Source of the DNA: Rhizophagus irregularis
Lineage: Eukaryota
Direction: 5' to 3'
Length of the DNA: 64,000 nt
NCBI RefSeq assembly: GCF_026210795.1
Contig: NC_089430.1
Coordinates: 1,550,001-1,614,000 of the forward strand
Every line of letters starts with the position of its first letter. The stretch's first letter is position 1. The notes under the pieces are model-generated. The model searched no databases, was not told the DNA's origin, and was given only the letters and a program-made list of their open reading frames with translations. Made by a program: the position numbers and the translations under genes. Positions 8,101-39,954 of the stretch are shown here, one piece after another.

Positions 8101-8664
8101 ATAATGAAAATATTACATACTGTAAATAAATAATGTATATAATTAAATATATAACCATTTAAAATTTAAAATTCCGTCTAACATTGTTCAGTTACATACA
8201 AAAAAAAAAAAAAAAATTATTTGGGTCACAGTGAGAATAAGAAAAGCTAATGTTAAACTGAATTCAAATTATAATGGTAAAAAAAGGAAATTTATCAATT
8301 ACTTATTTTGGCTTTAATCTAAACATTTTCTTTGCCCCTAAATTAATTACTTTTTATTAAAGTTAGAAGATACGTTAAATATAAATAACAAATATAAAGT
8401 CAGTCAATAAATTAAAATTTACCATCTTCATTTAAAAATATCTTTTAAATATGGTCTAATGAATCTATTTGATTAATTAAATTAATAATAGATTTTTTTT
8501 TATAGCAATAATTTATTAATAAATACCTGAAGAATTTTTAGTTATTATATCATCATTTTGTTCATAATAATCGTCAGAATTTTTTGGCTCTGGAAGGTTA
8601 TTAAGACTAAGTAAACTACTACCAGTGTAGTTAGCTTTTGAATGCACTTTATATGATGAGCTAG

Positions 8665-11600
8665 TTAAAGGTGTATTGTTATCATTGATTTCTTCAATTT
8701 TTGTTCTTCCAATTCTAGAGAATTGTCATACTTAAATTCCCATAATTTATCCCTAACTTCAATTGCTGTTGGTCGATTTAATGAATTTGCATCTAAACAT
8801 CTTTTAATTAAATGCACAATGAATTGAGGTACTTTAATAGTGTTAAACCTTGGTCTAAGTCCTAAACAAATTTTCGTTGCTAAAAAGTCATTAAAAATTA
8901 AATTGTGATATGGAGATAATCCAGAAATAACTTCATACATAACTATTCCAAAACTGTAAATATCAGCAGCTTTAGTATAACTTTGTCCTCGTAAAATCTC
9001 AGGGGCAATATAAGGCAAAACACCATATATATTATTTTTTGCATTTTCTGATGGTTTGTAATCTGCAGGTTTACATAATCCCATATCAGTTATAAGAATA
9101 GTTTCGTAATTTTTTAGTACATTACCAGTATGTAGATCTCGATGAATTATTTCATTTCCATGAATATTTTCAAGTCCAGATGCAATATTGTATAAATAAT
9201 TGATTTTAATTTTTAAATCTAATTCATTATTTTCATTTAAAAAATCCCGTAAGCTTCCATTTACTGCATATTCCAAAACCATCATATAATTTTTTGTCTT
9301 TGGATCTTGAGTTATTCCATATAATTTAATAATAAATGAATTATTATCAACTTTATTATGTAATGCAATCTGTATAAAAATATAAATAATATATCAATAA
9401 AATCAAATTCTTAAATTTCATTAATTATAAAAATAAATTATACCTCATTCATAAATTCTAATGAGATATTTTCTGAATTATTTAAACTTTTTAGAGCTAC
9501 AGGCATATTTTGGCTTATTCTTTTCCAATTTTGATATCCATCATCCCAAAAGCTTATATTTCCATCAATCCAATTTGCTTTATATACTATACCAAACCCA
9601 CCTTTTGCAATATACTCAACATTATAAAGTTTATTGTAAGGTATCCATTCTAATGCTTTTTTAACATCGTTTTTATGAGTTGATAGTTGAGTACCTTGAA
9701 TAAATTCATCAATATCATCATTACCACTAGTCCAATTATTGAAATTTAGTAGAAAATGTATTGAACCACATGCACAATCACATTTTTTACACTTATTATT
9801 GTAATAATTTTTCAAAACTATCATATAATCTTTGGTTTCTGGATTCTGTGTTATTCCATAAGTGATAACAACCTAAAAATATTATATATTAGCAAAAAAT
9901 TAAAGTTCATCAAAAATATTAATAAAAAACAAATACATTATACCTCATTTATTAACTTAGAAAATTTTGGACTATTTAATTTTTTCAATACTACAATCAT
10001 ATATTTATCGCTTCTCTCCCACTTTTGATTAATATTATCCCAACACTGTATTTTTCCATCACTCCAATTTGCTTCATAGTACTCATTTTCTGCAATATAC
10101 TTAATATTATAAAATTTATCATAAGATATCCATTCTAATGCATTTTTCAAATTATCATGAGTTGATAGCTGAATATCTTGAATAAATTTATCAACACCTT
10201 CATTACCACTAGTCCAATTATTGAAATTCTTTTGAAAATGTATTGAATAGCATATTTTATTACATTTTTCACATTTTTCACTCAAAACCATCATATAACC
10301 TTTTATTTCTGGAATTTGTGTTATTCCATAAGCAATAGCAATCTATAAATATTACATATTAGCAAAAATTAAAATTTATCAAAAATTTCAATAAGAGCAA
10401 ATTTATCATACCTCATTCGCAAATTCTAAAGTAATATCTTTTGTATTATTTAATTTTTTCAGTATTACAATCATATTTTGACTATTTCTTGCCCAATTCT
10501 GATTATTTATATCCCAATCATATAAATTTCCATCAATCCAATTTGCTTTATACTCATTTGCTGCAATATACTTAATATTATAGAATTTATCATAAGTTAT
10601 CCATTCTAATGCTTTTTTCACATCATAATGAGCTGATAGCTGAGTATCTTGAATAAATTTATCAACATCTTCATTACTACTAGTCCAATTAATAAAATTC
10701 TTTTGTAAATGTATTGCATAGCATATGTTAATACATTTTTTACAATTTTCATTCAAAACCATCAAATAATCATTTGTTTCTGGATTTTGGGTTATTCCAT
10801 AAGCAATAGTAATCTATAAATATTACATATTAGCAAATTTATCAAAAATTTTAATAAGAACAAATTTATCATACCTCATTCGCAAATTCTAAAGTAATAT
10901 TTTTTGTATTAGTATTTAATTTTTTCAGTATTACAATCATATTTTGGCTATTTCTTGTCCAATTCTGATTATTTATATCCCAATCATATAAATTTCCATC
11001 AATCCAATTTGCTTTATACTCATTTTCCACAATATAATTAATATTATAGAATTTATCATAAGTTATCCATTCTAATACTTTTTTCACATCATTATGAGCT
11101 GATAACTGAGTATCTTGAATAAATTTATCAACATCTTCATTACCACTAGTCCAATTATTGAAATTATGTGTAAAATGTATTGAATAGCATTTGTCATTAC
11201 ATTTTTTACATTTTTCATTCAAAATCATCATATAATCTTTTGTTTCTGGATTTTGTGTTATTCCATAAGCAGTAGCAATCTATAAATATTACATATTAGC
11301 AAAAAATTAAAATTTATCAAAAATTTTAATAAGAGTAAATTTATCATACCTCATTCACAAATTCTAAAGTAATATCTTTTGTACTATTTAATTTTTTCAG
11401 TATTACAATCATATTTTGATTTTTTCTTGTCCAATTCTGATTATTTATATCCCAATCATATAAATTTCCATCAATCCAATTTGCTTTATACTCATTTGCT
11501 GCAATATACTTAATATTATAGAATTTATCATAAGTTATCCATTCAAATGCTTTTTCCACATCATTATGAGCTAATAGCTGAATAGTTTGAATAAATTTAT

Positions 11601-14600
11601 CAACAACTTCATTACCACTAGTCCAATTAATAAAATTCTTTTGTAAATGTATTGAATAGCATATGTTATTACATTTTTTACATTTTTCATTCAAAACCAT
11701 CATATAATCTTTTGTTTCTGGATTTTGTGTTATTCCATAAGCAATATAAGCAATAGCAATCTATAAATATTACATATTAGCAAATTTTATATCAAAAATT
11801 TTAATAAGAGCAAATTTATCATACCTCATTCACAAATTCTAAAGTAATATATTTTGTATTATTTAATTTTTTCAGTATTACAATCATATTTTGATTTTTT
11901 CTTGTCCAATTCTGATTATTTATATCCCAATCATATAAATTTCCATCAATCCAATTTGCCTGATATCTATCATTCACAAAATATGTGATATCATAAAATT
12001 TATCATAAGATATCCATTCTAATACTTTTTTCACATCATTATGAGCTGATAACTGAGTATCTTGAATAAATTTATCAACATCTTCATTACCACTAGTCCA
12101 ATTATTGAAATTATGTGTAAAATGTATTGAATAGCATTTGTCATTACATTTTTTACATTTTTCATTCAAAATCATCATATAATCTTTTGTTTCTGGATTT
12201 TGTGTTATTCCATAAGCAGTAGCAATCTATAAATATTACATATTAGCAAAAAATTAAAATTTATCAAAAATTTTAATAAGAGTAAATTTATCATACCTCA
12301 TTCACAAATTCTAAAGTAATATCTTTTGTACTATTTAATTTTTTCAGTATTACAATCATATTTTGATTTTTTCTTGTCCAATTCTGATTATTTATATCCC
12401 AATCATATAAATTTCCATCAATCCAATTTGCTTTATACTCATTTGCTGCAATATACTTAATATTATAGAATTTATCATAAGTTATCCATTCAAATGCTTT
12501 TTCCACATCATTATGAGCTAATAGCTGAATAGTTTGAATAAATTTATCAAAAACTTCATTACCACTAGTCCAATTATTGAAATTCTTTTGTAAATGTATT
12601 GAATAGCATATGTTATTACATTTTTTACATTTTTCATTCAAAACCATCATATAATCTTTTGTTTCTGGATTTTGTGTTATTCCATAAGCAATAGCAATCT
12701 ATAAATATTACATATTAGCAAATTTTATATCAAAAATTTTAATAAGAGCAAATTTATCATACCTTATTCACAAATTCTAAAGTAATATATTTTGTATTAT
12801 TTAATTTTTTCAGTATTACAATTATATTTTGACTATTTCTTGTCCCATCAATCCAATTTGCTTTATACTCATTTGCTGCAATATAATTAATATTATAGAA
12901 TTTATCATAAGTTATCCATTCTAATGCTTTTTTCACATCATTATGAGCTGATAGCTGAGTATCTTGAATAAATTTATCAACATCTTCATTACCACTAGTC
13001 CAATTATTGAAATTCTTTCGAAAATGTATTGAATAGCATATGTTATTACATTTTTTACAATTTTCATTCAAAACCATCATATAATCTTTTGTTTCTAAAT
13101 TTTGTGTTATTCCATAAGCAATAGCAATCTATAAATATTACATATTAGCGAATTTATCAAAAATTTCAATAAGAGCAAATTTATCATACCTCATTCACAA
13201 ATTCTAAAGTAATATCTTTTGTATTATTTAATCTTTTCAGTATTACAATTATATTTTGACTATTTCTTGTCCAATTCTGAATACTTCTATTCCAATAACT
13301 TATATTTCCATCAATCCAATTTGCTTTATACTCATTTGCTGCAATATAATTAATATTATAGAATTTATCATAAGTTATCCATTCTAATGCTTTTTTCACA
13401 TCATTATGAGCTAATAACTGAGTATATTGAATAAATTTATCAACATTTATATTACCACTAGTCCAATTATTGAAATTCTTTTGAAAATGTATTGAATAGC
13501 ATATGTTATTACATTTTTTACATTCTTTATTCAAAACTATCATATAATCTTTTGTTTCTGGATTTTGTGTTATTCCATAAGCAATAGCAATCTATAAATA
13601 TTAAATATTAGAAAAAATTAAATTTATCAAAAATTTTAATAAGGCAAATTTATCATACCTTATTCATAAATTCTAAAGTAATATCTTTTGTATTATTTAA
13701 TTTTTTCAGTATTACAATTGTATTTTGATCTCTTGTCCAATTCTGAATACTTTCATTCCAATTAATTATATTTCCTTCAATCCAATTTGCCTGATATCTA
13801 TCATTCACAAAATATGTGATATCATAAAATTTATCATAAGATATCCATTCCAATGCATTTTTCAAATTATCATGAGTTGATAGCTGAATATCTTGAATAA
13901 ATTTATCAACACCTTCATTACCACTAGTCCAATTATTGAAATTTTGTTGAAAATATATTGAAGAACAAATATAATCACATTTTTTACATTTTTTACTCAA
14001 AACCTTCATATAATCTTTTGTTTCTGGAATTTGTGTTATTCCATAAGCAATAGCAGTCTATAAATATTACATAATAGCAAAAATTAAAATTTATCAAAAT
14101 TTCAATAAAAATATATTTATCATACCTCATTCGCAAATCCTAAAGTAATATCTTTTGTATTATTTAATTTTTTCAATATTACAATCATATTTTTACCTTC
14201 CCTTTTCCAATTTTTATTTTTACTATCCCAATCAATTATGTTTCCATCATTCCAACTTGCCTGATACCTGTCTTTTTCAATGTATTCAATACTATAAAAT
14301 TGATCATAAGGTATCCATTCTAATGCTTTTTTCACATCATTATGAGCAGATAGTTGGGTATATTGAATAAAATTGTCAATATCATTGTTACCGCTGGTCC
14401 AATTATTGAAATTCTGTTGAAAATGTATTGAATAGCATATGTTATTACATTTTTTACATTTTTCATTCAAAACCATCATATAATCTTTTGTTTCTGGAAT
14501 TTGTGTTATTCCATAAGCAATAACAATCTATAAATATTACATATTAGCAAATTTTATATCAAAAATTTCAATAAGAGCAAATTTATCATACCTCATCCAC

Positions 14601-15434
14601 AAATTCTAAAGTAATATCGTTTGTATTATTTAATTTTTTCAGCATCACAATCATATTTTGATTTTTTCTTATCCAATTCTGAATATTTTCATTCCAATAA
14701 TACAAATTTCCATCAATCCAATTTGCTTCATAGTACTCATTTTCTGCAATATACTTAATATTATAGAATTTATCATAAGGTATCCATTCCAATGCCTCTT
14801 TCAAATTATCATGAGTTGATAGCTGAATATTTTGAATAAATTTATCAACACCTTCATTACAACTAGTCCAATTATTGAAATTTTGTTGAAAATATATTGA
14901 AAAACAAATGTATTCACATTTTTTACATTTTTTACTCAAAACCCTCATATAATCTTTTGTTTCTGGATTTTGTGTTATTCCATAAGCAATAGCAATCTAT
15001 AAATATTACATATTAGCAAAAATTAAAATTTATCAAAAATTTCAATAAAAATATATTTATTATACCTCATTCATAAATTCTAAAGTAATATCTTCTGTAT
15101 TTAATTTTTTCAGTATTACAATTATATTTTGACCTTCCCTTTTCCAATTTTTATTTTTACTATCCCAATCAATTATGTTTCCATCATTCCAATTTGCCTG
15201 ATACCTGTCTTTTTCAACATACTTGATATTATGAAATCGATCATAAGGTATCCATTCTAATGCTTTTTTCACATCATTATGAGCTGATAGTTGGGTATAT
15301 TGAATAAAATTGTCAATATCATTGTTACCGCTGGTCCAATTTTTGAAATCTTGTTGAAAATGTCTTGTGTAACATATGCGATTACATATTTTACATACGT
15401 TATATGACAACTTAATCTTTCTCTTTTTATCCAT
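8665..15434 (-). CDS. Giant tyrosine-kinase-like protein kinase (~1965 aa) with 12 degenerate N-lobe repeats, 1 intact N-lobe and a C-lobe
   Basis: 14 exons with GT-AG, phase-0 introns: 15434-15066, 14996-14592, 14527-14126, 14057-13659, 13591-13190, 13128-12763, 12698-12297, 12226-11825, 11760-11350, 11279-10875, 10813-10412, 10342-9944, 9872-9444, 9369-8665. All lengths are multiples of 3. The last N-lobe has AKGGFG and VALK; the C-lobe has HRDLHTGN, DMG and APE. A frameshift near 8700 cuts off the usual tail (..LNNLPEPKNSDDYYEQ.., to about 8420). Confidence 0.88.
9444..15434 (-). repeat. Tandem array of 13 exon+intron units of ~470 bp
   Basis: Recurring ORFs with CKKCxxxCxxxH/Y, NWTSGN, EWIxYD, ANWxDG, VILKKL and EFxNE. 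Near-identical ~65-75-nt introns (GTATGA/GTATAA...GCTAAT...TTTATAG). Confidence 0.95.
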
Positions 15435-20337: not shown

Positions 20338-23300
20338 CTAACTATCTGTTTGCATCATATGTTGCAATAACATTTCTCCTACTGCAATATCATCACTAAA
20401 TTCGTTATTATTATTTTTTGGATGTTCTACATGTTTCAAGAATAAATCTCCCACTGCATTATTATCACTAAATTCATTATTATTATCTGGAACTAGAGGA
20501 TTAAGTAACTGAGATGTATAATCAGCTTTTACATTATTAATTGATTTTCTGCTTTCAAATGTTAAAAGATTTTTTTTTCTGTATTCTTCTGCTTCTTTGA
20601 ATTGACTTCTAATTTCATAATGTTGTTGTTCTTTTTTGATCGACCTGATTCGTTTAAATGTAAGTGCATCCATAGTATATGAATGTTGATATAACTCAAT
20701 CAGTTCACGTATTTCATTAGCACTTGGTCTATTGTCTGGATTTGAATCCCAGCATTTTTTCATTAGGTCTATGTAGCATTTTGATGCTTCTGACTCATAT
20801 ATTACAGGTCTAGTTCCATTACATATACTAAATGCCAAATTTTTATCATGATCACAGTCAGCAAAGGGTTGTCTTCCAGTTGCTACAAAATACATAACCA
20901 TGCCAAAGCTGTATATATCTGCTGCTCGAGTATAAGGTTTTTCATTTAACACTTCAGGAGCTACATAAGGTAACACTCCATAAATTTTTGTTTCATCTTC
21001 ATTGTCAACTTCCCCACATAATCCCATATCTGATATATATATATTAAAACCCATTATATTAGCTTCATATAAAATATTACACACATGAAAATCACGGTGA
21101 ACTAATTGGTTTTGATGAATTTCTTCAAGACCACCAGCAATAATGGCCAACATTTCCAATTTTTCTTCCCAGGGTAAAGTTTCAAAATTCATATTTATAC
21201 AATCCTTCAAAGTTCCACCTTCTACATATTGAAGAACCATAACATAATCCTTTGTATCTGGAACTTGAGACATTCCATACGTTGCAAGAATACTCCAATC
21301 TGTTCCTTCTAATGAATATGCTTTAATCTATTTAAAATAGAAAATCATTATTATTACATTAGATTAAAAGTTATTTAATTAAATTTAAAGATAAAAAATT
21401 TTATTATACCTCATTTAGAAATTTATTGCTAATATTCTGTGAATTATTTAAACATTTTAGAGCAATTTTTTTATTTGCGGTCCTTTTATGTCTATTCTCG
21501 TCTTTATCATATTCAAATGGACCATCCTTCCATATTGCTGAGTATACTGTAGAAAAACCACCTTTTCCTATTTCCTTAATATCACTAAACTGATCATACG
21601 GTATCCATTCAAATACTAACCCATAATAATCATCAATTTTTGATTGCATATATTTTATAAATTTATCAATTCTTTCACTTCCACTGGTCCAATTATTAAA
21701 ATTTTCATTTAAATGACATAATTTACACCACTTAAAATCAATATTTGCATATTTTACGCCACATTTCTCACAATATTTATCCCTAATTACCATAATATAA
21801 TCTTTTGTATTTGGATTTTGAGAAATTCCATATACAATATCATAAGACTCCTCAACCTATTAAAGCATAAAAAAATTTTTATTATCATATTAATAATAAA
21901 ATGTATTAAATTATTAATAGATATACAGTACCTTGTTCAAAAATTCATCAACAATATTTGATGAATTATTTAAAATTTTTAAAGCAACTTTTTGATCTGA
22001 ATTTCTTTTATATTCATAACTGTTTTTATTAAATTCAAATAAACCATCCTTCCATATTGCTGAACATATCGTAAAAGAATCATCTTTGCCTATTTCTCTA
22101 ATATCATTTAATTGACTATATGGTATCCATTCAAATACCATATCATCATAATTATCAATCTCTGATTGCTTATTTTGAATAAAATTATCAATTTTTTCAT
22201 TGCCACTAGTCCAGTTTTTAAAAGTATTTTTTAAGTAATTTAATTGACATGGTTCACACCATTTATATAATATACTCGTATATTCTTCACCACATTTTTC
22301 ACAATATCCATCACTAAATATTACGATATAATCATTCGTATCTGGATTTTGTGATATTCCGTATATTTTAGGGTCATTATCAGATAAACTATCAGAATCT
22401 GATTCACTCGTTAGATATGTTTTGATCTATTAAATGCGAGAAAAAATTATTAGAGAAGTTATAATATTATTAAGAAATATACATAATAAATTAATGGAAA
22501 AGTTCATACTTTATTTAAGAATTCACTAACAACAACTTGAGAGTTATGTAAACACTTTAAAGCAACTCTTTTATCTGATTTTCTAGTCAATTCTCTTTTA
22601 TCGTAATCATAATTTAGTGGTCCACTTTTCCATATTGCTGAATACATTGTGGTGGAATCACTCTTGACAATCTCTTTGACATCGGTAAAATGATCATTTG
22701 GTATCCATTCAAAAACTGGATCGTCCGGTACAAATTTCAATTGCATTTCTTGAATAAAATCATCAATAATTTTATTTCCACTAGTCCAGTTTGTGAAATT
22801 TTCTTTTAAATAATTTATTATACATTGTCCACACCATTCGAAAGTATCACGCCAATGAGGAATTTCAATTGTATTGTAAGTTACGTATTTCTCACCACAT
22901 TTTTCACAATATAAATCTTCCAAGACAATAATATAATCATTTGTATCTGGATTTTGAGACAATCCATACATATAAAGTATATTTTCACTCGCTTTAACCT
23001 TTAAGATAATTAAAAAAACACATTATTGGGCTAGAAAAGTATTATATTTAAGCCAAATTCATAAAATTCTCATACCTGGTTAAGAAGTTCATTAATGATA
23101 TCTTGTGATGAATTATATAAACATTTTAAGGCAACATTTTCACATGATTTCCTTTCATATTTGTTTGTATCATCATTATACTCTAACGGACCATCCACCC
23201 ACGTTGCCTTATATAATATACTAGAATCATTTTTTCCTATTTCTTTGATGTTATTAAACTGATTGTATGGTATCCATTCGAATATATCATCATAATAATT

Positions 23301-24204
23301 AATTTTTAGTTGTCTTTTTTGAATAAAATTATCAATTATTTTATTTCCACTGGTTTGAATTATAAAATTATTTTTAAGAAAATCCATTTTACATAATTTA
23401 CACCACTTACGCATTTGATGAACATATCTTTCAATACATTTACCACAATCTCCATTTTGAAGAACAATAATATAATCATTTGTGTTTGGATTTTGAGATA
23501 TTCCATATACATCAAGTATATTATTATTTTCATAATTTAAATATGTTTTAACCTATTAAAATAAGGAGACAAAAAATTATTATTATTTGTTATTATCAAA
23601 AAAAAAAATTGTATATTAAAATTTTCTTCAAAAAAAACTTTTACAAATTACAAACCTCATTTAGAAATTCGTTAATGAAATTTTTTGAATTATGTAAATA
23701 TTTTAAAGTAAATAATTTATTTGAATCTCTTTCATATTTTTTTGTAGTTCTTTTATACATTAATGGACCATCATTCCATATTGTTGAATAATTCGTAATA
23801 TTATTATTATCATTACCTATTTTTTTAATTTCATTAAACTGATCATATGATATCCATTCAAATATTATTTCATCATAATCATTAATTTTTAATTGTATTT
23901 CTTGAACAAATTTATCAATTATTTCATTTCCACTTGTCCAGTTTATAAAATTTTGTTTTAAATTATTTATTTGACATGATTTACACCATTGATACTTTGT
24001 ATTTGTATATTCTTCGTTACATATTTCACATCGACTTGAATTTTTTTTTTCTGAGGATGTGTGACTTGAAGTGACAGAGTGATCTTCAGATTCATCTAAG
24101 TCAAGGTCAAGGTCAAGGTCAAGATTATTAAAGTCATCATTATCAAAGTCAAAGTCTTCTTCCATCATTTCTACATCCTCTGTTTCATAATTATTGTCCG
24201 ACAT
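20338..24204 (-). CDS. Tyrosine-kinase-like kinase (~1148 aa): acidic N-terminus, 4 degenerate + 1 intact N-lobe modules, C-lobe
   Basis: Exons 24204-23656, 23552-23076, 22998-22510, 22426-21932, 21856-21410, 21327-20338, all with phase-0 introns and an open frame. Last module GKGGFS/IALK; C-lobe HRDFHVCN, DMG, APE. Confidence 0.88.
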
Positions 24205-24518: not shown

Positions 24519-27500
24519 ATGTCATTTCAAAACGGGAACAAAATAAATGAAAGATGTGAAAAATGTGATGAACAAGCCACAAAAGAATGGTGTAAATCAT
24601 GTCGAATAAATTTTTTTAAAGAAAATTTTACAAATTGGACGAGTGAAAATAAAAGAATTGATGATTTCATTCAAGAAGTACAATTAAATATTAATTGTAA
24701 TGATATAGTATTTGAATGGATACCATATAATCAATTTGATAATATTAAAGAAATAAAGAAAGATAATGTTATTATATTAAAATTGTCAACATGGAATAAT
24801 GGTCCATTAAGTTATAATCGTGATGAGAGGAAATGGATAAGAGAACCAAATAAGAAGATTACTTTAAAATGTATATGTAATTCCCAAAACAATATTAATG
24901 GATTTTTAAATGAGGTAAGAAATTTTATAAATTGATTTAAATAATTTTTTTTAATTCAAATAGTAATTTTTCTTTTTTTTTCACTTATTCTTGATAGGTT
25001 AAATCGTATTCAACAAATATCTATGAGGTTGAAAGTAAAATATATGGAATATCTCAAAATCCGGATACAAAGGATTATTTAATGATTTTTGAAAATGAGT
25101 ATTGTTGGAATTGTGGTGAAAAATATACAGATGCAAATAATGAATGGTGTAAATCATGTCGAAGAAATTATTTGAAAAATAATTTTACAAATTGGACCAG
25201 TGGAAATGAAAAAATCGATACTTTCATTCAAAAAATGCAATTAAAAATCAATTATTCACCTGATATAGTAATTGAATGGATACCATGTGATCAATTTTAT
25301 AATATTAAGGAAATTAGCAATAAAAATTTCACCATAGTATATTCAGCAATATGGAAGGATGGTCCATTACGTTATGATTATGATAAAAAGGAATGGATAA
25401 GAGAATCAGAAAAAAATGTTGTTTTAAAATGTTTATATAATTCACAAAACATAATTGATGAATTTTTAAATGAAGTATGAAATTTCTTGATAAAGTATTA
25501 TGAATTTATATATGTATACTTAAGTGATAATAATTTTTTTTTTTCTATTATATAATAGGTCAAAACATATTCAACAAATGTTTATGGTGACGATGATAAT
25601 ATTTTAAATATATATGGAATATCTCATAATCCAGAAACAAAAGATTATATTATGGTCTTACAAGATGGATATTGTAAAGAATGTGGCGAACAATATATTG
25701 ATAAATGGTGCAAATCATGTCAAATAAATTATTTTAAAAGAGACTTCATAAATTGGACGAGTGGAAATGAAAATATTGATAATTTTATTCAAAATATACA
25801 ATTAAAAATTAGTAACCAGTCTGATATAATATGTGAATGGATACCATACGATCAATTTAACAATATTAGAGAAATATGCAGGAGTGATCTCATTACAATA
25901 CATAAAGCAATATGGAAGGATGGTCCATTACATTATAATAAAAATGAAAAGAAATGGATAAGAGAATCGGATAAAAACATTGCTTTAAAATGTTTGTATA
26001 ATTCGCAAAACAATGTTAATAAGTTATTAAGTGAGGTATGGATAGTATTTCTTTATGAATTTATTTTAAAATATATAATAATGATTTTTATTATTAATAG
26101 GTCAAAGCTTATTTTGATAATAATGACGTTGTTGATAACAATGATGTTGAAATGTTAACAAATATTGATAATATCAGCGATAGCGTTAATGTTGATGATG
26201 CTGATGTTGATATTAATATTGATGATGATGATGATATTTACGCCGATGATGATGATAATATCAATGCTGATGATGATGATATTGATGACATTGGTGTTGA
26301 TGATGATATTGATGTTGATGATGATATTAATATTGATGATGATATTGATGTTGATGATGATATCGATATTGATGATAACGATAATAATACTAATTCTATC
26401 AAAATATATGGAATATCTCAAAATCCAAATACGAAAGATTATATTATTGTTTTGCAAGATGTATATTGTAAAGAATGTGGTGAAGAATATGCAGATGTAG
26501 ATGACAAATGGTGTAAATCATGTGTTATACGTGATTTAAGAAACAATTTCGCAAACTGGACTAGTGGAAATAAACATATTGATGATTTAATTCAAGAAAT
26601 GCAATTAAAAGTTGATGATTCATATGATTTATTATTTGAATGGATTCCATATGATCAGTTTAATGATATTAAAGAAATTGGTAAAGGTGGTTTTGCTACA
26701 ATATATTCAGCAATATGGAGTGATGGTCCTCTATATTATGATATTATTAATAGAAGAAAGGAATGGATAAGAGATCCAGATAAAAATGTTGCTTTAAAAT
26801 GTTTACATAATTCATTAAATATTAGTAAACAATTTTTAAACGAGGTATCAAACTTTTTTTTTTTTAGAAATTTAAATTTAAATAAAATTTTTTATTAATA
26901 AATATTCTATATTTTGATAGATTAAAGCATATTCGATAGCTAATTCTAGTAAGATTCTTAAAGTATATGGAATATCTCAAAATCCAGTCACAAAAGATTA
27001 CATTATGGTTCTTGAATATGCAGGTGGAGGGAATTTTAATGATTGGATAAATAGAAATTATAAAAAATTTGATTGGAATGAAAAATTATCTATATTATTT
27101 GATATTTGTGAAGGTCTTAAAGAGATTCATGAAAATAAAATGGTTCATCATGATTTTCATACAGGAAATATATTATTTGCGTATCAAGATGAACGTGATA
27201 TATATATTTCAGATATGGGTTTATGTGGAGAAGTTTCAGAAGTTGATAATAATACAAATGAATCGAAAATTTATGGAGTTATGCCTTATGTAGCTCCTGA
27301 AGTATTATACGGAAAACCTTATACTCAGCCAGCTGATATATACAGCTTTGGTATGATTATGTATTTTATAGCAACTGGAAGAAGACCTTTTTTTGATTGT
27401 GCTCATGGAGATAATTTAGTATTAAACATATGTGGTGGAATTAGACCAGAAATAAATGAGCCAGAAGCGCCAAAATGTTATATTGATTTAATGAAAAAGT

Positions 27501-27946
27501 GTTGGGATTCAAATCCAAATAATAGACCAAATGCTGATGAAATTCAGGAATCGATTTATTTATTTGAAAATTCATATAATCAAGAATTTGATATGCGAAA
27601 ACAGCAATATTATGAAATTAATAAACAATTTAATGAAGCAGAAAAGTATAGAAAATTACACTTTTCATTTGAGGACAACAGACCTACACATCCTAAAGCT
27701 GTTTATACTGCTCGGTTACTTAATCCTTATACAAAAAAGCTTCCAAAATATGATGATAAAATCTATGAATTCAGTGATGATATGGTAGTTGAATTGTTAA
27801 AGGATGGTATTATAACAGAAAATGAATCTGATTTTGAATCTACTAAACCAAATACTGAACCTAAGGAAAACCCCATAGAATTTGAATTTAGTGACAATAT
27901 TGCAGTAGAAGAATTATTACTAAAGCATGTGACGGAATTAGAATAA
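24519..27946 (+). CDS. Tyrosine-kinase-like kinase (~1039 aa): 3 degenerate + 1 intact N-lobe modules, Asp-rich insert, non-RD C-lobe
   Basis: Exons 24519-24914, 24998-25474, 25559-26035, 26101-26844, 26921-27946, all with phase-0 introns and an open frame. Last module GKGGFA/VALK; C-lobe HHDFHTGN, DMG, APE. Confidence 0.88.
26116..26390 (+). repeat. Coding (GAT)n-based minisatellite encoding an Asp-rich tract
   Basis: Repeats of ~18 nt such as GATGATGATATTGATGTT and GATGATGATATTAATATT translate to DDDIDV / DDDINI. Confidence 0.9.
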
Positions 27947-30557: not shown

Positions 30558-31398
30558 TAGAGATTGGAACCGGTTAAGGTTAACCAGTTAATTAACCGGT
30601 TAAGGCGGTTAACCGGTTAAGACCTCTCAAAAAACGGTTAACCGGTTAAATTAACCGGTTAAATTAACCGACTAATTAACCGGCTAACTTAACCGGTTAA
30701 AATACAGATCATCCTAAATTAGTAATTCCTAGCCAACTTCTAACTTTAACTTTACTAGCATTAACTTTAATTTTGCCCACCCTAATAGATTCGATGATAA
30801 ACCTGCAATCTTATATTTTAATATAATATATTGCATATGATATTTATAATTTAACATTATTTATGTTAAAATATTCTAAAGTTATAACCTTGATTTATGC
30901 AGAAATCAGCATATGATCGGGTATAGTATTTTAAATAAGAAAAAATGCAAAAATTTGAATACTACAGTGGCCATCAGAATTGGAATGGAATTTCGGATAG
31001 AACTAAAAATATAATTAAAAAACTTTTCAACTTAGTGCTGATACCGGTGACCACTGCATGACTGGGTAGTAAGTAATTACAATATACTGTATGTAATTTT
31101 TTACTAATGTATACATTTTAATACAAATATTTACCAGAAATTACTCTTAAATAATACTATTTAGTTAAAAACACAAAAATTTATCTTTAAATGCGCGTTA
31201 AAATACAAAAAATAGGCCTCTAATTCTAAACACACGTTAAAATATAAAATATATATATTAACCGGTTATTAACCGGTTAGCCTCATTACAAATTAACCGG
31301 TTAATTAACCGATTAATTAACCGACTATTAACCGGTTAGACGCTCTAATTAACCGGTTATTAACCGGTTAAGCTTTTTTTTGACGGTTCCAATCCCTA
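30558..31398. mobile_element. Non-autonomous hAT-type DNA transposon (841 bp)
   Basis: 15-bp TIRs TAGAGATTGGAACCG / CGGTTCCAATCCCTA (1 mismatch). Perfect 8-bp TSD GTTCAAAT at 30550-30557 and 31399-31406. Subterminal arrays of TTAACCGGTTAA at both ends. Confidence 0.92.
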
Positions 31399-31927: not shown

Positions 31928-33623
31928 TCATCCGTTAGCTTTGTTTGCTTTTACATATTCCAACATATCATTTTTTAATTGTTGATCATCAATATTGGGT
32001 ATAATAATATTATTTTCATCATCGTTTATTCTATAGTATTCATTAACACAATCAATCCATTGAGATATAATATTTTCAAGCATTCTTACAGTTGGCCTAT
32101 TAGAAGGATCTTCATCCCAACATTTTTTCATTAAATCTGTATAACATTTTGGAGTATTTTCCATAATTTTAGGACGTTTCCCTTCACAAATACTTACAGC
32201 ATCACATTCTTCATAACTAAATGGTGGATTACCTGATGTAAATTCCCACATAATCATTGAAAAACTATAAATTTCACTTGCTGGTGTACATGGATTTTTT
32301 CTTAATATTTCAGGCGCCATATAAGGCAAAACTCCATAAGGTTCATTATCATTATCAGAATCTTGTATATCACTTATGGGTTTACATAATCCAAAATCAT
32401 TAATAAATAACTCATTATAATTATCTGAAATTAATATATTACCATCATGAAAATTACCATGAACTAAACTTGATTCATGAATTACTTTAAGTCCTAATAT
32501 AATTTTTTTCAATAATTGTAACTTTTCTTGCCACTTAAATTCAACTATATCAGATAAGCATTTTCTCAAATTTCCCTTTTTTGCATAACTCATTACCATT
32601 ATATAATTTTTATTTGGATATTGGCTAAATCCAAATAATTGAATAAATTTTGAAAATGTTTTTTTCTGACAATTATAATGATATTTCCACTAATAAATAA
32701 TAAAAAAATTATTAAATTTTTATAAAAGAAAATGAAACTTGCTTATTAAATATAAATTAAATATAAATATTATACCTCATCTAGAAATTTATCATTTGAA
32801 TTATCAAGTACTTTAAGAATGACCTCATTTCCCATTTGTCTATCCCATTGTTCCAACCATAAATAGGTCCATCTAACCAGATAGCTTTATGAATTTCACC
32901 AAATCCACCTTGATCATGATAATTAATACTTGAAAGTTTATTATATGGTATCCACTCTAAAATTTCATAATTATCTTTAGCAATTAGTTGTGTTTCTTGA
33001 ATAAATTTATCAATAAATTCATTATTACTAGTCCATTTTGAAAATTCTTGTTGAAATCGTTTAGCATTACATTGTTGGCACCATTGGTAATTACTATATG
33101 GTAGTCTACATTCATTACATAATTCACTTTTATTTTTAGAACTTGCTTTATTACTTTCTGCTGCTTTTCGATGCCAATAATAGGCTTTTTCTAAATTCTT
33201 TTCTGTTCCTTTCCCATCTTTGTAATATATAGATAAATTATTCATTGCTTCTTCATCACCATTTTCTGCTGATTTTTGACACCAATGAAAGGATTTTTCT
33301 AAATCTTTTTCCGTTCCTTCTCCATTTTTAAAACATATGGCTAAATTAGTCATTGCTTTAATATGATCTTTCTCCGCTGCTTTTTGATACCAATGAAAGG
33401 CTTTTTCTAAATTCTTTTCTATTCCTTCTCCATCTTTATAACATATGGCTAAATTAAACATTGCCATTTTATCATTATTTTTTGCTAATTTTTCTAAAGA
33501 ATTGATACAGTCTTCGCACCATAATTCTTTAATAAAAGGTTTGTTGCAATATGAACAACTTTTTGTTCCTACTGTATTGGTATCTTTATCTGAGATATTT
33601 GGTTCACTAAGTTCGGTCTCCAT
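31928..33623 (-). pseudogene. Sel1-repeat + pseudokinase gene with a frameshift
   Basis: C4 finger (CSYC..WCEDC), 3 Sel1 repeats, second finger (CNEC..WCQQC), KWTSNN, EWIPY, QGGFG. The frame shifts near 32850; QWDRQMGNEVILKVLDNSNDKFLDE continues in another frame to the donor at 32775. Exon 2 is 32689-31928 with HGNFHDGN (no catalytic Asp), DFG and APE. Confidence 0.78.
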
Positions 33624-34779
33624 TGGTTATTTTAGAAATTTATTTTGTTGAAAATATATATATATATATTTTTATTGATTTTTTTTTTTTTAAGCGAACT
33701 TTTTAAATAATTTTTTTTTGAAACATGAATGAGTTATTAAAAAAGGAATATTCTAACCAATAAAGAATAAAGGTTAAATTTTTTTTCGGGCCACATTTTT
33801 CCGATGCACTGATCTGCATTAGGTAAAGTTTCTAATGATAGGAAATTCCCGTATCAATAAACAATAATTGTGTAAAAAACTTTGATACACTGGCCTCACA
33901 TGATTATACAAAATTGGAAAGACGAGAACGAATCAAAATAATTGAAGATGAGAAGAGAGGTGCAGATCAGGTGACGATATCAGAAATGACTTGGTCATTT
34001 CGAATTAGGGTCAAATGATTTTCGTTCCGCAAATGCCAAATGCCAAATGATTGGATAGTTATTAAAAAAAAGATTATTGGACATTTAATTACATCATCAC
34101 GGGATGTACAAAACTATATAATCACCACACCAAATTCTTTCTTTTTTTTACTGTAATTTAAAAATCGGCTTTAATAATAGAAATTATTAAAGTGATATAT
34201 ACTAATAATATGTTATTTATTATGTAAATTTTACTAAATATATTTTATGCATAAAAAGAATGTCCTTATTTACAATTATTATTTATTTTTTTTTATTGAT
34301 TATATTATCTATTGTATAATTAGACTTTGCACGGCATAATTTTCATTACTAATTCCACTAAAATTAATGGACGTTAGTGTGAATAAAATTAAATACTGTA
34401 CCTTGTAAAGTAAAAACGGATCATGTGATCATACGAGTGATACGATCGAGCGTAGATTTGTGTAACAGACATTAATTGAAGCTATGATAGTTTAGATCTT
34501 TGAATCAAAAGAAATAATTAAATGGAAAAACACTGTAATTGATAGAAAAATTATAACTAAAATTTACTATTTATTACGGAGAAAATGCGCAATTATTTAA
34601 TATTATAATCACCACATGGAAATCCACATCGAATATTGTGGAAATATGTGAAAATCTGAAAAGTTCCAATATTTTCCAACTATCCTGTGACAAAACACGT
34701 GGTTTTTTCAGCGTATATCCAATGGGAATGCATGGAATTCCACATATTTCTCCTAAAAATCTCGTGATGTTATAATAGT

Positions 34780-35117
34780 ATAAATGTATGATATTAATAA
34801 CAATAAATTAATTTATTAAATAAAAACATAAAAATAATAGTTCATTTAAAGATGGATAATCTCTAATTTAAAAATATTTTACTTTCAAAAGCAACTATTT
34901 AAATTTTCATCAAATTTATTGAATTTTTAATATCATATATACAAAAAAAAAATAAACATGTTAAAAATATGGAAAAGATTTTATTCATTTAAACTTGGAG
35001 AAAAGAATCCCAAAAAGCTTGTACAATAATGTGTTTAATATGGTCTTTAATTAATTTGATAATTAATTTTTAATTTTCTCATTTATTATTAAATATTCAA
35101 AACTAACAAAAAAAAAT
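34780..35117 (+). repeat. Segmental duplicate of ~41550-41890 (3' flank of the membrane-protein gene unit)
   Basis: Near-identical ~340 bp, e.g. AAACTTGGAGAAAAGAATCCCAAAAAGCTTGTACAATAATGTGTTTAATATGGTCTTTAA in both places. 34390-34600 also resembles flanks at ~35935, ~48865 and ~55030. Confidence 0.85.
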
Positions 35118-35155
35118 CAATTTCTATAACATTTCTTACATTATTTGGAATATGC

Positions 35156-35633
35156 TTGATCTTTTCAATGTTAGATACTATTTTAATAATTATGTTTACG
35201 GGACTTTTAGAATGCCATTATTTAGATGAAATAGTAGATTATAAGATAGTGAATAAACTAACGTATGCATCAACTATTATAAGTTTTTATGTCCCGAATA
35301 TTCTTCAAACATTATTGATTACATTATTTTGGCCAATCAATTTTCACTTTGTCAAAGCATGCGTGTTTATACTGATTCTACCTTTAACAAGAAATGTGTC
35401 TTACTTTTCTGATATAAAGGTGCCTGGAGAACTTCCGGCTACTTCAACAACAATAACTCAATGCTTAATAATCAGGTTTATTATAAAAAATGATTTTTAA
35501 ATACATCCTTAAGGAGACACAAATATCAATAGAAGGAATGCAGGAAAAAATTACAAAAATTGATGAATTGCAGACGAAAATTGACAAAATACAGCAGGAG
35601 ACGATGAACGAAAATAAAAACATAAATGGATGA
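35156..35633 (+). pseudogene. 5'-truncated, frameshifted copy of the multi-TM + coiled-coil family
   Basis: FYVPNILQTLLITLFWPINFHFVKACVFILILPLTRNVSYF matches the last two TM segments of 39955-41082. An extra T near 35497 shifts the frame before YILKETQISIE..KIDELQTKIDKIQ..NENKNING*. Confidence 0.85.
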
Positions 35634-36111: not shown

Positions 36112-39100
36112 TAGCATGGTTAAAAATCGTGATTATTGGTTGATTTAGAGTAGCACAAAATCAATTGAATTATGACTATGTAATGATCGGCATTTATATT
36201 GCTATTTTACTTTATAAAATAAGGTACGAAGAGTGTATTTACAAAATTTTGATACGTGTTACTAAGAAATGTCGCGTGTGTTTAATAGAGGATAAAAAAG
36301 GTTTTTTTAAAGATCCCAAAAGTACTTTTTAAGATCCCAAACTTTTATTAATACAAATGATAAACGGTAGACCTCGTAAAAATAAAGGACCGTGTGTAAT
36401 ATGTGGTAAAGAAAATGACAACGAAAAGTTCAGGCAGTTAACACCAAGTTTGTTTCAAAAAGCCTTAAAAAGTCCTGGATTTCAAGATTTAGACGTAAAC
36501 CTTAAGTTATATGATCAGCTTTGCGGAAGACATTACAATAAATTGGTTGTATTTGATAGGAATACTTCAAAATCAAGTAGAAAACCTATGCATGAAGTTG
36601 ATTTATCGTATAATGAAAGTGGGAATAAAGCAAAACGGGTTTGTTTATCACAAGAAACCTATGAAAATTTATTAAATAGTGCCTCAAGTGTACCACAACT
36701 TGAACAAGAAATATTAGAACTAAAGGAAAAAGTGAACGACTACATGTGTGATCTTGAGCAAATTAATATTTGATTATTATGCCTAACGTGTTTGATATAT
36801 TTATAATTAACTAATTATATTTACCAAAAGAATCCAGACAATTCTCTGAGTATTTTAATGATCAAATGGCACGAATGACAAAAGTTCTTTATCAAGAAGG
36901 AAATTTTCCAAAGCTAAATGCTGCAGATTTTGTTAAATTAATTGAAAATCATGATCCAAATCTTCAAGGATTTTTTGACACTTTATACAATGCAATGAAT
37001 CCTAAAGGAAAAAATAAGAGGACTCAGGAATGCTTAAAACAAAAAATTATGCTACTTTGCTATCAAATGGCAGGACTACGAAATAAACAAGTAAGCGGTG
37101 CAAAAACTGCAGTTGGATTGTTTTTTGTGAAGTCTGGAGCATCTGCCCATTGTGTAAATACGGCGGCTAATATGGGACTATGTGCAATATACCAAACAGC
37201 CTTTAACAAACTTGGCAAAATAGAAGAAATCATAATTTAAGTGTACGATCATATTCAAACTTTTGTAAGTTAAATTTTGATAAGTTTTATTTGTTTTGAT
37301 TTTAAAATACATACTAAATCAATCTTCAGTCCAACAACCTTTTAATTGCATGTATAGATGATTATCACAATCTCCATGGAACCTGTATTCCATCGGTAAA
37401 TTCTACTTCACAAATATCTCATATGGCGACTATTTTATTTAATACGACCCAAGCTCCACCTATTCCTTATTATACTGATTATCATTTAGCCATTCACAAT
37501 CCCTGCGGTGTTGATGCTTCAATTTTAAGGAACGTTTGTCAAGAATTTATGCTAACATTGGCTAAAAGTTACAATTCAGAAAAATCAAGTTGGAACTGGG
37601 CATCAGACCTTGTAGTAGTAGATGAGACAGAGATTATCGAAAGGTTGACAATTCACTCATACGATTCTGACATTTCTGAAAAGTATCAACGAAAATTTAA
37701 TCAAACAAAACTAGTGGATTGTATTGAATTGGATTTAAAAAATACAAAAAATTACATACAAGCCGCTAATACTTTTCTAAGGTTTGTAATTTAATATTGT
37801 TATTGGAAGGTTCATTTAATAATAAACTAATATATTGCTTCATAAGATTGCCGGAAACCAAGGAATATCTTAAAATGTTTGTCATTCCTTTTCCAGCAGA
37901 TTTTCCGGGTCAGCTGTTTATAAGAAGAGCCGTTACAAAAAGATTGAAAATGGAAGCAGGAACTGAACCTGAACCCGAATTGGAATCATCCATTCCAAAG
38001 GAAATTATGCATCTAGTTCCTTTTTTAGGTCCCCTCCACGTTTCACTTAACACACGAGAATCGGTTATGATTATATTTCACTCTTTTTTTGATTATATGT
38101 ACAAAATAGTCTTCAATAAAAAACAAAAACTTGCAGCAAAACCTAAGCCATGGCGCATTAATCTGCTATTATACTTGGCTCATGAAGGCCGGTTATTAAT
38201 TAAAAATTGTGTATTAAAAAGATTTGCCATGTCTAAAGATATTTCGTATGTTACATTTCTTGATCTTCTAGATAATTTAGTGCCCTCAACCCTAGACATA
38301 TATTCAAACTTATTTCGAAGCAATTATTTGGAAGAATATATTAGTACAATATTTCGGTTGTGGACTATTATGCGACGATTTCAGTGGCATAATTATGACA
38401 AAATTATGCTAGCTTTTTTGTCAGATATTCACTATTGGAAAAAAATAAATCACCCAATAATCCATACCTTAAAAACGCATTTAAATACTTTTGATGAATA
38501 TCCTGTAGAGAATTATCATAGCATATTACGTCGTCATACAAATGCAAAAGTATCTACAGGCAAATCTTTAAGGCGAGATGCATTATTTCTTGATCATTGT
38601 CGTCATGAAAACTTATTTGTAAAATCATTTGAGCCAACACGAGATTATCCTTATACCAAAAAGGATCTTGATAATTTAGTAAAGCTGACGGCTATTTTTC
38701 ACTTGGATTTTTTTGATAACTTATGGAAAAATCCTGGACGCACAGAATTAAAAAAGGAAGGAAAAAAAATAAAAAAAGATTTTTATTACTTTCCTGGTAT
38801 TAAATCACAATTTTCCTCAAAAGCTTTGCCATTAGGATATCATTCAAAAAAATGGCCATCAGCTAATAAATTATGTGATCGTTTGGAATGCACAGATCCA
38901 TCATGGATTGATGGTATGGTGTTAAATTGTGGACATGGGTATCATGAAACATGTTTTCGAACTTTAGGCTTAAAATGTCCACATTGTTTTAAATATCTTT
39001 CTGATTCAATTGATGAATTATCACAATCTTATAACCAAAGGTTGCAAATGGACGAAGATATTAAAAAATGGGCAGATTGTGAAAGTGAAAATCATGAATC

Positions 39101-39617
39101 ATGACGATAATAATGAGTTAGAAAATGATGAAAATCTAAATATAAGAAAGCAAGCTGAAATAGATGAAGCATTAAAGAGAAGGATACTTGGTATGTTTAA
39201 TTCATTTTTATTCAATTATAATTAAATATCTCAATTATTTACAAAATTAACAGAATTTATCGAAAATTGTGCATCGGGCTGAGTGAATTGAATAAGTTGT
39301 TACCAAATATAATTTACAAAGGATATTATCTACTAGGATGTTATAAAATGTTTTGGATATTTGTATACTATACTTTAGGTTTTAAAAACATTATCAATAT
39401 ATTAATAGTTATATTAATACAGTTACTAATACAATACAGAATTTTTTTTTTCGTCGCAAGACTTTGTATTACAATAAATTTATTGGTCAATAACTCAAAG
39501 TTATCACGTGTATAAACCATTTCGATTTTAGCCAATAAATTTATGTTTAATTTAATTGGTTAATTAATGTTGATCATCACGTGAAATCAAACCAATAAAC
39601 AGATTTTTAACCAAGCT
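36112..39617 (+). mobile_element. ~3.5-kb DNA transposon with imperfect TIRs
   Basis: Left end TAGCATGGTTAAAAATCGTGATTATTGGTTGATTT; reverse complement of right end GAGCTTGGTTAAAAATCTGTTTATTGGTTTGATTT. It interrupts the conserved gene-family flank at ..CGCGAAATCATTTT. No TSD identified. Confidence 0.65.
36357..39190 (+). pseudogene. Putative DDE transposase (Academ-like, inferred) with THAP-like N-terminus and RING-H2-like C-terminus; frameshifted
   Basis: N-terminal CVIC..LCGRHY (C2CH). Candidate catalytic motifs IDDYHN, PADFPGQ, LGPLH and DEYPVENYHS. C-terminal C..C..CGHGYHETC..CPHC. Introns present; frameshift near 37230 and a 7-bp AATCATG duplication near 39090-39103. Confidence 0.6.
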
Positions 39618-39708: not shown

Positions 39709-39954
39709 CCCCTTAAACCTAAAATTATTTAAGTATAAAGTCCTACGTTGTATTAACTTTACGTAATAATATTGATTGTATTTTTTCTTATTGAGACGCT
39801 TCGGAAATACATGTGCAATTCATTGAGACTTTATGCATAAATGTAACAATATTTAGGTATACATTGCCTATAAATACACAACAAAATAAGTTAAAATATT
39901 CATCTCACAAATTCGCCACACGAATTCGCTAGGAAAAATTATCAAAGAATTAAA

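What the first reader, a model, noticed from the sequence alone, without database searches (positions are those of the whole stretch)
8665..15434. Kinase carrying a 12-copy array of catalytically stripped N-lobes in front of one complete kinase domain
Seen: one open 14-exon frame. Each protein repeat is a Cys finger, the NWTSGN..IDxFIQ helix, EWIPY, strands b1-b3 with the Lys (VILKKL), helix aC with its Glu (EFxNE) and b4-b5 (YGITQNPETKDYMMVL). It then restarts at the next Cys finger instead of entering the hinge (EYA). Relative to the 13th, intact lobe, all 12 repeats lack the Gly-rich loop (YIAKGGFGIVYKANW becomes e.g. YIAANEYKANW) and the aC-b4 linker (IALHNKVDNNSFIIKLYG becomes IAIAYG). 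Established: the Gly loop positions ATP and an N-lobe alone cannot catalyse. Inference: the half-kinase has been repurposed as a repeat binding, decoy or scaffold domain, analogous to pseudokinase decoys in plant tandem-kinase immune receptors. I know of no description of tandem isolated N-lobe arrays.
Basis: partly seen in the sequence, partly recalled or inferred. Interest (0 to 1): 0.92.

Follow-up and report, generated by a model that had tools for sequence, protein, structure and literature searches.

The report
Fungal kinases with half-kinase arrays
A gene of an arbuscular mycorrhizal fungus carries 12 head-to-tail copies of the front half of a protein kinase, each missing its ATP-binding loop, ahead of one intact kinase; the same layout recurs in many predicted proteins from three fungal orders, and the copies likely act as a binding or sensing surface rather than as enzymes.

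Summary
Observation confirmed. Fourteen exons (15434-8665, minus strand) splice in silico to 1965 aa: 12 repeats, then one intact kinase. The gene is from Rhizophagus irregularis or very close kin.

It is not a one-off. 155 of 238 homologues pair such an array with a catalytic lobe, and stripped arrays also occur in Glomus, Acaulospora and Ambispora. In a tree they group with their own lineage's intact lobes, so they likely arose several times.

Predicted repeats fold as kinase N-lobes (Z 9.4; all 50 top matches kinases). Six ATP-site residues are all kept in 133 of 145 terminal lobes but 1 of 1266 array lobes, while the fold core is kept. Core omega is 0.17, and 6 of 6 exon indels are in frame.

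Against: no RNA evidence; no significant positive selection; this allele has a frameshift, seen in short reads, that drops the family's C-terminal tail.

Closest precedent: the single partial kinase duplication (KDup) of wheat RWT4, which binds an effector. Ten paper searches found no N-lobe array. One earlier scan note (other DNA, untested) read a fungal kinase-front array as non-coding. Best reading: a multivalent binding or sensor array, function inferred.

The parts
8665..15434 (-). Predicted 14-exon gene, 1965 aa: 12 stripped N-lobe repeats plus one TKL-like kinase; no hydrophobic signal or membrane segment
   Evidence: max 19-residue hydropathy 1.25; named records P0014 and P0056 match its two ends
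9792..15395 (-). Array of 12 units. Each is a 3-Cys motif, a helical cap with NWTSGN..IDxFIQ, EWIxY, b1-b2 without Gly loop, a b2-b3 hairpin insert, b3, aC, a phase-0 intron, then b4-b5. Approximate unit starts: 15395, 14927, 14458, 13988, 13522, 13059, 12629, 12157, 11682, 11210, 10744, 10273
   Evidence: fold; unit starts worked out by hand from the exon and residue positions
9274..9791 (-). 13th, intact unit: cap plus N-lobe with AKGGFG loop, VALK, EFMNE and full aC-b4 linker, interrupted by intron 13 (9443-9370)
   Evidence: all six ATP-site residues present
8730..9273 (-). Hinge and C-lobe with HRDLHTGN, DMG and APE
   Evidence: Pfam PF07714 E 2.9e-37 on exon 14; Foldseek hits RIPK2, JAK1, FGFR2, BRAF
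8525..8702 (-). Family C-terminal tail (..YKVHSKANYTGSSLL..) lying in another frame behind a frameshift at an A-run near 8700; the translated product ends at 8665 instead
   Evidence: tail motif in 135 of 165 C-lobe proteins; in frame in the 93% identical P0013; 4 of 4 runs show no gap there
9370..15065 (-). 13 homologous phase-0 GT-AG introns, each directly after the aC Glu codon; the DNA repeat unit is exon plus intron, about 470 bp

Best explanation
The gene is predicted to encode a cytoplasmic TKL-like kinase whose front half (helical cap plus N-lobe) was tandemly duplicated 12 times and lost its ATP-facing residues, and the copies likely serve as a multivalent, variable binding surface that senses partner or foreign proteins and controls the one intact kinase behind them.

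Shown: the architecture, the specific loss of ATP-site residues, purifying selection on the core, and the spread of the layout. Predicted: the N-lobe fold. Inferred: growth by unequal crossing-over of a roughly 470-bp exon-plus-intron unit whose ends fall at the N-lobe boundary; b5 of each unit leading into the next unit where the C-lobe would normally sit; ligand binding on the outer surfaces (cap loop, b2-b3 hairpin, aC region), where the variable positions lie; and kinase activation by clustering or release. The ligand is unknown. Proteins of endobacteria, other microbes or nonself hyphae that target this kinase family are the guess.
For: Fold. AF2 of P0056 (near-identical to the last repeats and the kinase) gives pLDDT 77.5, with the same five-strand order in repeats and intact lobe. 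A two-repeat paralogue gives pLDDT 83.8. Against 48,161 PDB chains all 50 listed rows are kinase folds, best Z 9.4, rmsd 2.4 A over 74 residues.

Selective stripping. All of Gly, Gly, Phe, b3 Ala, b3 Lys and aC Glu are kept in 133 of 145 terminal lobes and in 1 of 1266 array lobes. Of columns at least 85% conserved in terminal lobes, 42 of 56 (subfamily A) and 31 of 45 (B) stay conserved in arrays. The 14 lost in A are all in the Gly-loop segment, b3 Ala, the b3-aC loop, aC and one b5 Met; the 14 lost in B are mostly in the same elements.

Selection in this gene. Omega is 0.46 overall and 0.17 in the third of sites conserved family-wide (2dlnL 30 against omega 1). 6 of 6 exon indels are in frame against 1 of 6 intron indels.

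Spread. 155 of 238 homologues have array plus catalytic loop, and 52 have 10 or more lobes. They come from three Rhizophagus species and Glomus cerebriforme, Acaulospora and Ambispora, that is three orders. Subfamily A, Acaulospora and Ambispora each form a clade holding both intact and stripped lobes (SH-aLRT 90.6, 100, 96.4).

Precedent. The RWT4 KDup binds AvrPWT4. An N-lobe beta-finger of Sr62 is the predicted effector-binding site. Fungal NLR sensors use shuffled repeat arrays.
Against: No transcript or protein evidence: the runs laid behave as DNA, or their kind is a guess. No ligand and no binding is shown. The variable third of sites has omega 1.2-1.6, not significantly above 1 (2dlnL 0.5), and the middle third sits at 1.0. 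So the diversifying selection typical of immune sensors was not detected in 12 repeats. The most variable columns are largely the same in terminal and array lobes. This allele has lost the conserved C-terminal tail, and 83 of 238 homologue models lack a recognisable catalytic loop, so many copies may be decaying or mis-annotated. High-copy kinase genes of R. irregularis have higher CG methylation than core genes (PMC8647823, passages). All homologues are gene predictions.
Confidence: 0.5

Rival explanations
1. Tolerated by-product. The exon-plus-intron unit amplifies by unequal crossing-over in a repeat-rich compartment. Selection only keeps the frame open and the units folded so that the kinase behind them is still made; ATP residues decay because they are unused, and the array does nothing.
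For: Omega is near 1 at two thirds of sites. This allele is tail-frameshifted. There is no RNA evidence. Kinase genes are high-copy, methylated and enriched next to MULE transposons (PMC8647823). Diversispora P0386 shows a plain duplicate with the Gly loop intact. An earlier scan note read a fungal kinase-front array as non-coding (e1-9917726, not tested here).
Against: Fresh intact duplicates should then be common, yet 1 of 1266 array lobes keeps all six ATP residues. b3 Ala falls to 1% in subfamily A arrays while neighbouring core positions stay near 90%. Long arrays persist in three orders at a cost of 1600 extra residues in this gene. Polar cap residues (T, S, N of NWTSGN) stay at 92-96% in subfamily A arrays.
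Confidence: 0.22
2. Scaffold or spacer for the fungus's own conserved partners. The repeats form a semi-rigid rod that docks substrates, adaptors or other family kinases through the conserved cap and b4-b5 surfaces, possibly under phosphorylation control at the repeated TSG loop. No foreign ligand is involved.
For: The cap and the YGITQxPxTxxY motif are as conserved in arrays as in active lobes. pTM 0.64 for two units suggests some fixed relative orientation (inference). No positive selection was detected.
Against: Copy number from 2 to 17 and a median within-gene identity of 62% are hard to square with one fixed partner. Some arrays lack the Cys motif altogether (P0127).
Confidence: 0.18
3. 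Built-in inhibitor. Stripped lobes occupy the C-lobe or dimer surface of their own or related kinases and hold them off until displaced, as pseudokinase domains do in JAK or as proposed for Sr62.
For: Loss is concentrated on the ATP site and on aC, the regulatory element. An autoinhibited arrangement is proposed for Sr62.
Against: One inhibitory lobe would suffice, so 12 copies are unexplained. The C-lobe-facing elements (aC-b4 linker, hinge) are the parts deleted in this subfamily: median linker 7 residues against 16.
Confidence: 0.1

Closest known systems
Wheat RWT4/WTK3 integrated partial kinase duplication, KDup (10.1101/2024.04.30.591956; passages seen)
   Same: An N-terminal partial copy of the protein's own kinase N-terminus, unable to catalyse, in front of an active kinase. 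Two residues in it are needed for effector binding.
   Different: Single copy, plant, part of a kinase-pseudokinase tandem, and it lacks the catalytic Lys. The fungal repeats are whole five-strand lobes with a cap, keep the Lys in 1073 of 1266 cases, lose the Gly loop, and come in arrays of up to 16 or so. No homology of the repeat to KDup was tested.
Plant tandem kinase proteins and JAK-type kinase-pseudokinase pairs (Sr62: 10.1101/2024.08.30.610287, passages; JAK from established knowledge)
   Same: A non-catalytic kinase-derived module sits beside an active kinase; in Sr62 an N-lobe beta-finger is the predicted sensing site.
   Different: Those domains are complete two-lobed folds. Here no repeat has a C-lobe, and the extra hairpin lies between b2 and b3 rather than extending the last two strands.
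Expanded tyrosine kinase-like genes of Rhizophagus irregularis (PMC4219462 and PMC8647823; passages)
   Same: The C-terminal kinase belongs to this known expansion; records are named only 'kinase-like domain-containing protein', Ypk2p, Tpk3p and the like.
   Different: The passages seen do not mention repeated N-lobes, and no Pfam family models the repeat.
Fungal NLR sensors with WD, ANK or TPR repeat arrays (PMC4986451; passages)
   Same: An effector domain joined to a shuffled, length-variable repeat array with recent internal duplications.
   Different: No NACHT or NB-ARC domain; the repeat is a 134-aa kinase fragment; positive selection was not detected here.

Membership tests
Eukaryotic protein kinase, TKL-like (C-terminal domain) | Gly loop, b3 Lys, aC Glu, HRD..N, DFG-like and APE motifs | tested here: met
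   AKGGFG, VALK, EFMNE, HRDLHTGN, DMG, APE; PF07714 E 7.2e-45 on the matching record P0056; Foldseek hits RIPK2, JAK, FGFR, BRAF
Eukaryotic protein kinase, TKL-like (C-terminal domain) | Phosphotransfer activity | not testable with these tools
   No assay; this allele lacks the family tail
Tandem kinase proteins / kinase-pseudokinase pairs | Two complete two-lobed kinase folds in one chain | tested here: not met
   One C-lobe only; each repeat restarts after b5
Tandem kinase proteins / kinase-pseudokinase pairs | Direct effector recognition triggering defence | not testable with these tools
   No ligand known
RWT4-type integrated partial kinase duplication (KDup) | N-terminal partial duplicate of the same family's kinase N-lobe, without an ATP site | tested here: met
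   Repeats are 75-81% identical in DNA to the intact unit, fold as N-lobes in prediction, and have lost ATP residues
RWT4-type integrated partial kinase duplication (KDup) | Single copy within a kinase-pseudokinase tandem | tested here: not met
   12 copies and no pseudokinase domain
RWT4-type integrated partial kinase duplication (KDup) | Binds a pathogen effector | not testable with these tools
   No ligand known
Fungal NLR with hypervariable repeat sensor | NACHT or NB-ARC domain | tested here: not met
   No such Pfam match on the 6 of 14 exons scanned or on P0056 and P0014; the protein is fully accounted for by lobes and kinase
Fungal NLR with hypervariable repeat sensor | High internal repeat conservation and repeat-number variation | tested here: inconclusive
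   Window repeats are 77-99% identical in DNA; 30 of 182 proteins have a pair at least 90% identical; 2-17 lobes across paralogues; allelic variation not established
Fungal NLR with hypervariable repeat sensor | Positive selection on a binding surface | tested here: inconclusive
   Variable third omega 1.2-1.6, not significant; 12 sequences, with likely conversion between them

The most novel reading that the evidence does not exclude
Arbuscular mycorrhizal fungi have repeatedly turned the kinase N-lobe into a stand-alone repeat domain. They use arrays of it, on hundreds of cytoplasmic kinases, as a shufflable library of decoy sensors: an undescribed class of fungal immune or nonself receptor, and a multi-copy parallel of the integrated kinase decoy in cereal resistance proteins.
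Probability: 0.35. Interest if true: 0.92.

Novelty: new variant of a known kind. Interest (0 to 1): 0.76.

Why it matters
The kinase N-lobe is normally treated as half of one enzyme. Here it appears as a modular repeat, kept folded but stripped of ATP contacts, in three orders of the fungi that partner most land plants. The known but unexplained kinase expansion of these fungi gains a defined, unannotated N-terminal domain (no Pfam model) and a concrete hypothesis: array plus kinase as sensor plus output. This can be tested by cDNA, deletion, pull-down and structure. The family also gives a natural experiment on which N-lobe residues serve the fold and which serve catalysis.

Tried and rejected
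No whole genome is held for the window, so genes per genome could not be counted.

RNA. No RNA holder was listed on record. I laid 4 of the 24 listed runs. Three have contigs that read through a whole intron (X1 and X3 intron 12; X5 introns 12 and 13), and the fourth covers intron 12 too; none of the joints shown matches a modelled intron. They say nothing on splicing. The four runs that might be RNA remain unlaid, so expression is open.

Complex prediction of two repeats with the kinase: no answer (score 0.01, alignments not used), counted neither way.

Foldseek of the two-repeat model gave no match at E 0.001 or better, though the listed rows were all kinases. The cap and Cys motif (residues before about 43 of that model) were barely tested by the fold search. 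A profile of the repeat found only chance hits in PDB sequences, so a recalled resemblance of the NWTSGN helix-loop-helix to the TGF-beta receptor GS segment stays an untested lead. Pfam hits on repeats (DUF72, adenovirus fibre head, UvrA and others) had no passing stretch or were below the cut-off and are rejected. The ESM Atlas returned only Mucoromycota-labelled kinase clusters; a second Atlas query did not complete.

Assembly expansion of the whole array: rejected. Assembly error at the tail frameshift: rejected. Each array made afresh from its own terminal lobe: not supported, since 139 of 142 terminal lobes are closer to another gene's terminal lobe than to their own array. One single ancient origin of all arrays without later exchange: not supported.

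The 28-position 'core' figure (0.917 against 0.918) used columns I picked by eye from both groups, so it is circular; one search replaces it. NG86 dN/dS of 0.80 ignores the strong transition bias (kappa 4.1), so the ML value is used.
Full report
OBSERVATION. The minus strand of 15434-8665 holds a tandem repeat of about 470 bp whose exons are each open. Joining them at GT-AG sites gives 14 exons, 13 phase-0 introns of 61-74 nt and one 1965-aa frame. The protein has 13 units that begin at a CxxCxxxC motif. Twelve end after strand b5 and restart; the thirteenth goes on through the hinge into a C-lobe with all catalytic motifs. Every repeat lacks the Gly-rich loop and most of the aC-b4 linker. Short-read contigs of 4 of 4 laid runs, from 3 studies, cross that site without a gap, so the break is real in those samples. 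The repeats differ from one another (77-99% DNA identity), and only one exact duplicate exceeds 114 bp (540 bp). The array is therefore real, with doubt only about the newest duplication. Splicing is predicted, not seen.

SOURCE AND SPREAD. One exon finds 304 longer proteins; the 120 listed are all Rhizophagus. Two short-read gene models of R. irregularis match the two ends of this gene, one 100% over 328 kinase residues. An exon from a second array gene in the window finds 768 proteins, the 120 listed being Rhizophagus and Glomus cerebriforme. A Glomus query again listed only those genera. These lists are ranked by score and so favour long arrays: they show that the layout is common, not what share of all kinases have it. 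Of the 238 distinct proteins have three or more lobes, 52 have ten or more, and 155 have an array plus a catalytic loop. A profile search matched 3336 clusters at 50% identity. I looked up 10 of the 134 new representatives, chosen among the most divergent: 5 were Acaulospora morrowiae, 1 Ambispora leptoticha, 1 Diversispora epigaea and 3 Rhizophagus. The Acaulospora and Ambispora proteins carry stripped arrays before a Gly-loop lobe; the Diversispora protein has two intact copies. That spans Glomerales, Diversisporales and Archaeosporales. All of these are gene predictions.

FOLD. The window's spliced protein itself was not folded. The matching record P0056 (two and a third repeats plus kinase; 78 sequences) gave pLDDT 77.5, with the same strand order in repeats and intact lobe and a shorter aC in the repeats. 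A paralogue with two repeats and no kinase gave pLDDT 83.8 and pTM 0.64, with aC of normal length. Against 48,161 representative chains, all 50 listed matches of that kinase-free model are kinase folds. The best are PTK7 (Z 9.4, rmsd 2.4 A, 74 residues), MLKL, RIPK3 and RIPK2, aligned on residues 59-147, from EWIPY to b5. Foldseek gave only weak rows, also kinases. The cap before the lobe has no tested match. The kinase domain is closest in structure to RIPK2, JAK, FGFR and BRAF. No Pfam family models the repeat.

WHAT IS KEPT AND WHAT IS LOST. Of 1770 lobe hits in 239 proteins, 1469 of at least 115 aa were aligned: 145 terminal, 1266 internal, and 58 last units without a recognised C-lobe, which were set aside. 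Six ATP-site residues are all present in 133 of 145 terminal and 1 of 1266 internal lobes; singly, the second Gly is kept in 144 of 145 against 84 of 1266, and the Lys in 142 against 1073. Choosing columns only by their conservation in terminal lobes, 42 of 56 (subfamily A, this gene's) and 31 of 45 (subfamily B) stay conserved in arrays. The lost ones cluster in the Gly loop, b3 Ala, the b3-aC loop and aC. Subfamily A often deletes the loop and shortens the aC-b4 linker (median 7 against 16 residues); B mostly substitutes the glycines and keeps the linker. Among this gene's 12 repeats omega is 0.46: 0.17 in the family-conserved third, 1.0 in the middle third (possibly an optimiser that did not move), and 1.2-1.6 in the variable third, not significantly above 1. 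Exon indels are in frame in 6 of 6 cases, intron indels in 1 of 6.

ORIGIN. With ATP-related columns masked, 912 lobes from 145 proteins split once into subfamilies A and B, each holding terminal and array lobes. Terminal and array states change 62 times against a mean of 134 in 50 shuffles, and 139 of 142 terminal lobes are closest to another gene's terminal lobe. So arrays form lasting lineages yet are intermixed with intact lobes. In a tree of 82 lobes (a random subsample of A and B, plus the other genera; 3 dropped for gaps), subfamily A, Acaulospora and Ambispora each form a clade with both states (SH-aLRT 90.6, 100, 96.4), and B is monophyletic only if Ambispora is included. The simplest reading is at least three separate origins. 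Conversion between terminal and array lobes within lineages could give the same tree; no rooted or constrained test was run. The breakpoints fall at the end of b5 in every array inspected, the natural edge of the lobe.

MECHANISM. An N-lobe without C-lobe cannot catalyse (established knowledge), and these have also lost the residues that hold ATP. Their core is nevertheless maintained, so I take them to be folded, non-catalytic modules. The protein has no hydrophobic segment and would be cytoplasmic. I favour a multivalent binding or sensor array controlling the kinase (0.5). Reasons: the family is large and variable in unit number; the layout recurs; and a single partial duplicate in wheat RWT4 is needed to bind an effector (10.1101/2024.04.30.591956). 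Rivals: a tolerated by-product of unequal crossing-over (0.22), a scaffold for the fungus's own partners (0.18), and an inhibitor (0.1). Against my reading: no positive selection detected, no RNA, no ligand, a truncated allele here, and 83 of 238 models without a catalytic loop.

LITERATURE. Ten full-text searches showed no description of N-lobe arrays; the phrase search for duplicated or tandem N-lobes returned the RWT4 preprint and two unrelated papers. I saw passages, not whole texts, of PMC4219462, PMC8647823, PMC10234402, PMC4986451, PMC13600239, 10.1101/2024.04.30.591956 and 10.1101/2024.08.30.610287; all others only as listings. No supplements were read. The original genome papers on the kinase expansion (Tisserant 2013, Chen 2018, Morin 2019) were seen only as citations; they or their supplements may show these architectures. 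Subdomain names (b1-b5, aC, Gly loop, C-lobe) and the JAK comparison rest on established knowledge, not on a call.

VERDICT. Real, family-wide, apparently recurrent, and without a description that I could find. It works like an integrated kinase-fragment module but fails membership of tandem kinases, of the single-copy KDup type and of NLRs. New variant of a known kind; interest 0.76.

Noticed in passing
window 20338-24204 (-) and 24519-27946 (+): Two more array kinases, head to head about 315 bp apart, of the 4-Cys subfamily: 4 stripped plus 1 intact lobe, and 3 stripped plus 1 intact. Their Gly loops are substituted, not deleted.
   Followed up: partly
window 26193-26376 (+): An in-frame Asp-rich tandem repeat (18-bp period) in the last aC-b4 linker of the array in the plus-strand gene.
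   Followed up: no
window 31928-33626 (-), 55650-58209 (-), 60796-62742 (+): Three more kinases: one with Sel1 repeats in front of the same cap and lobe, one with C-terminal Sel1 repeats, and one divergent single-lobe member with a 99-bp repeat in its tail. The window holds six kinases in all.
   Followed up: no
window 39895-41082, 47088-48515, 53369-54677 (+); fragment 35093-35500: Paralogous hydrophobic, probably multi-pass membrane proteins ending in a 33-bp coiled-coil-like repeat; the one scanned had no Pfam match above cut-off.
   Followed up: no
window 50229-52319 (-) and 36333-39104 (+): A transposase-like ORF pair (weak DDE_3 hit) and a run of long ORFs ending in a weak RING-like match, probably mobile-element derived.
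   Followed up: no
window 30578-30701 and 31291-31371: Two clusters of short palindromic TTAACCGGTTAA-type repeats upstream of the Sel1 kinase's 3' end.
   Followed up: no
P0013, P0127, P0178, P0008: P0013 (kinase 93% identical) has the tail in frame and a different upstream array, which may be allelic shuffling or a short-read chimera. P0127-type arrays lack the Cys motif. P0178 has array, kinase and Sel1 repeats. P0008 has internal lobes with near-intact Gly loops, possibly intermediates.
   Followed up: partly
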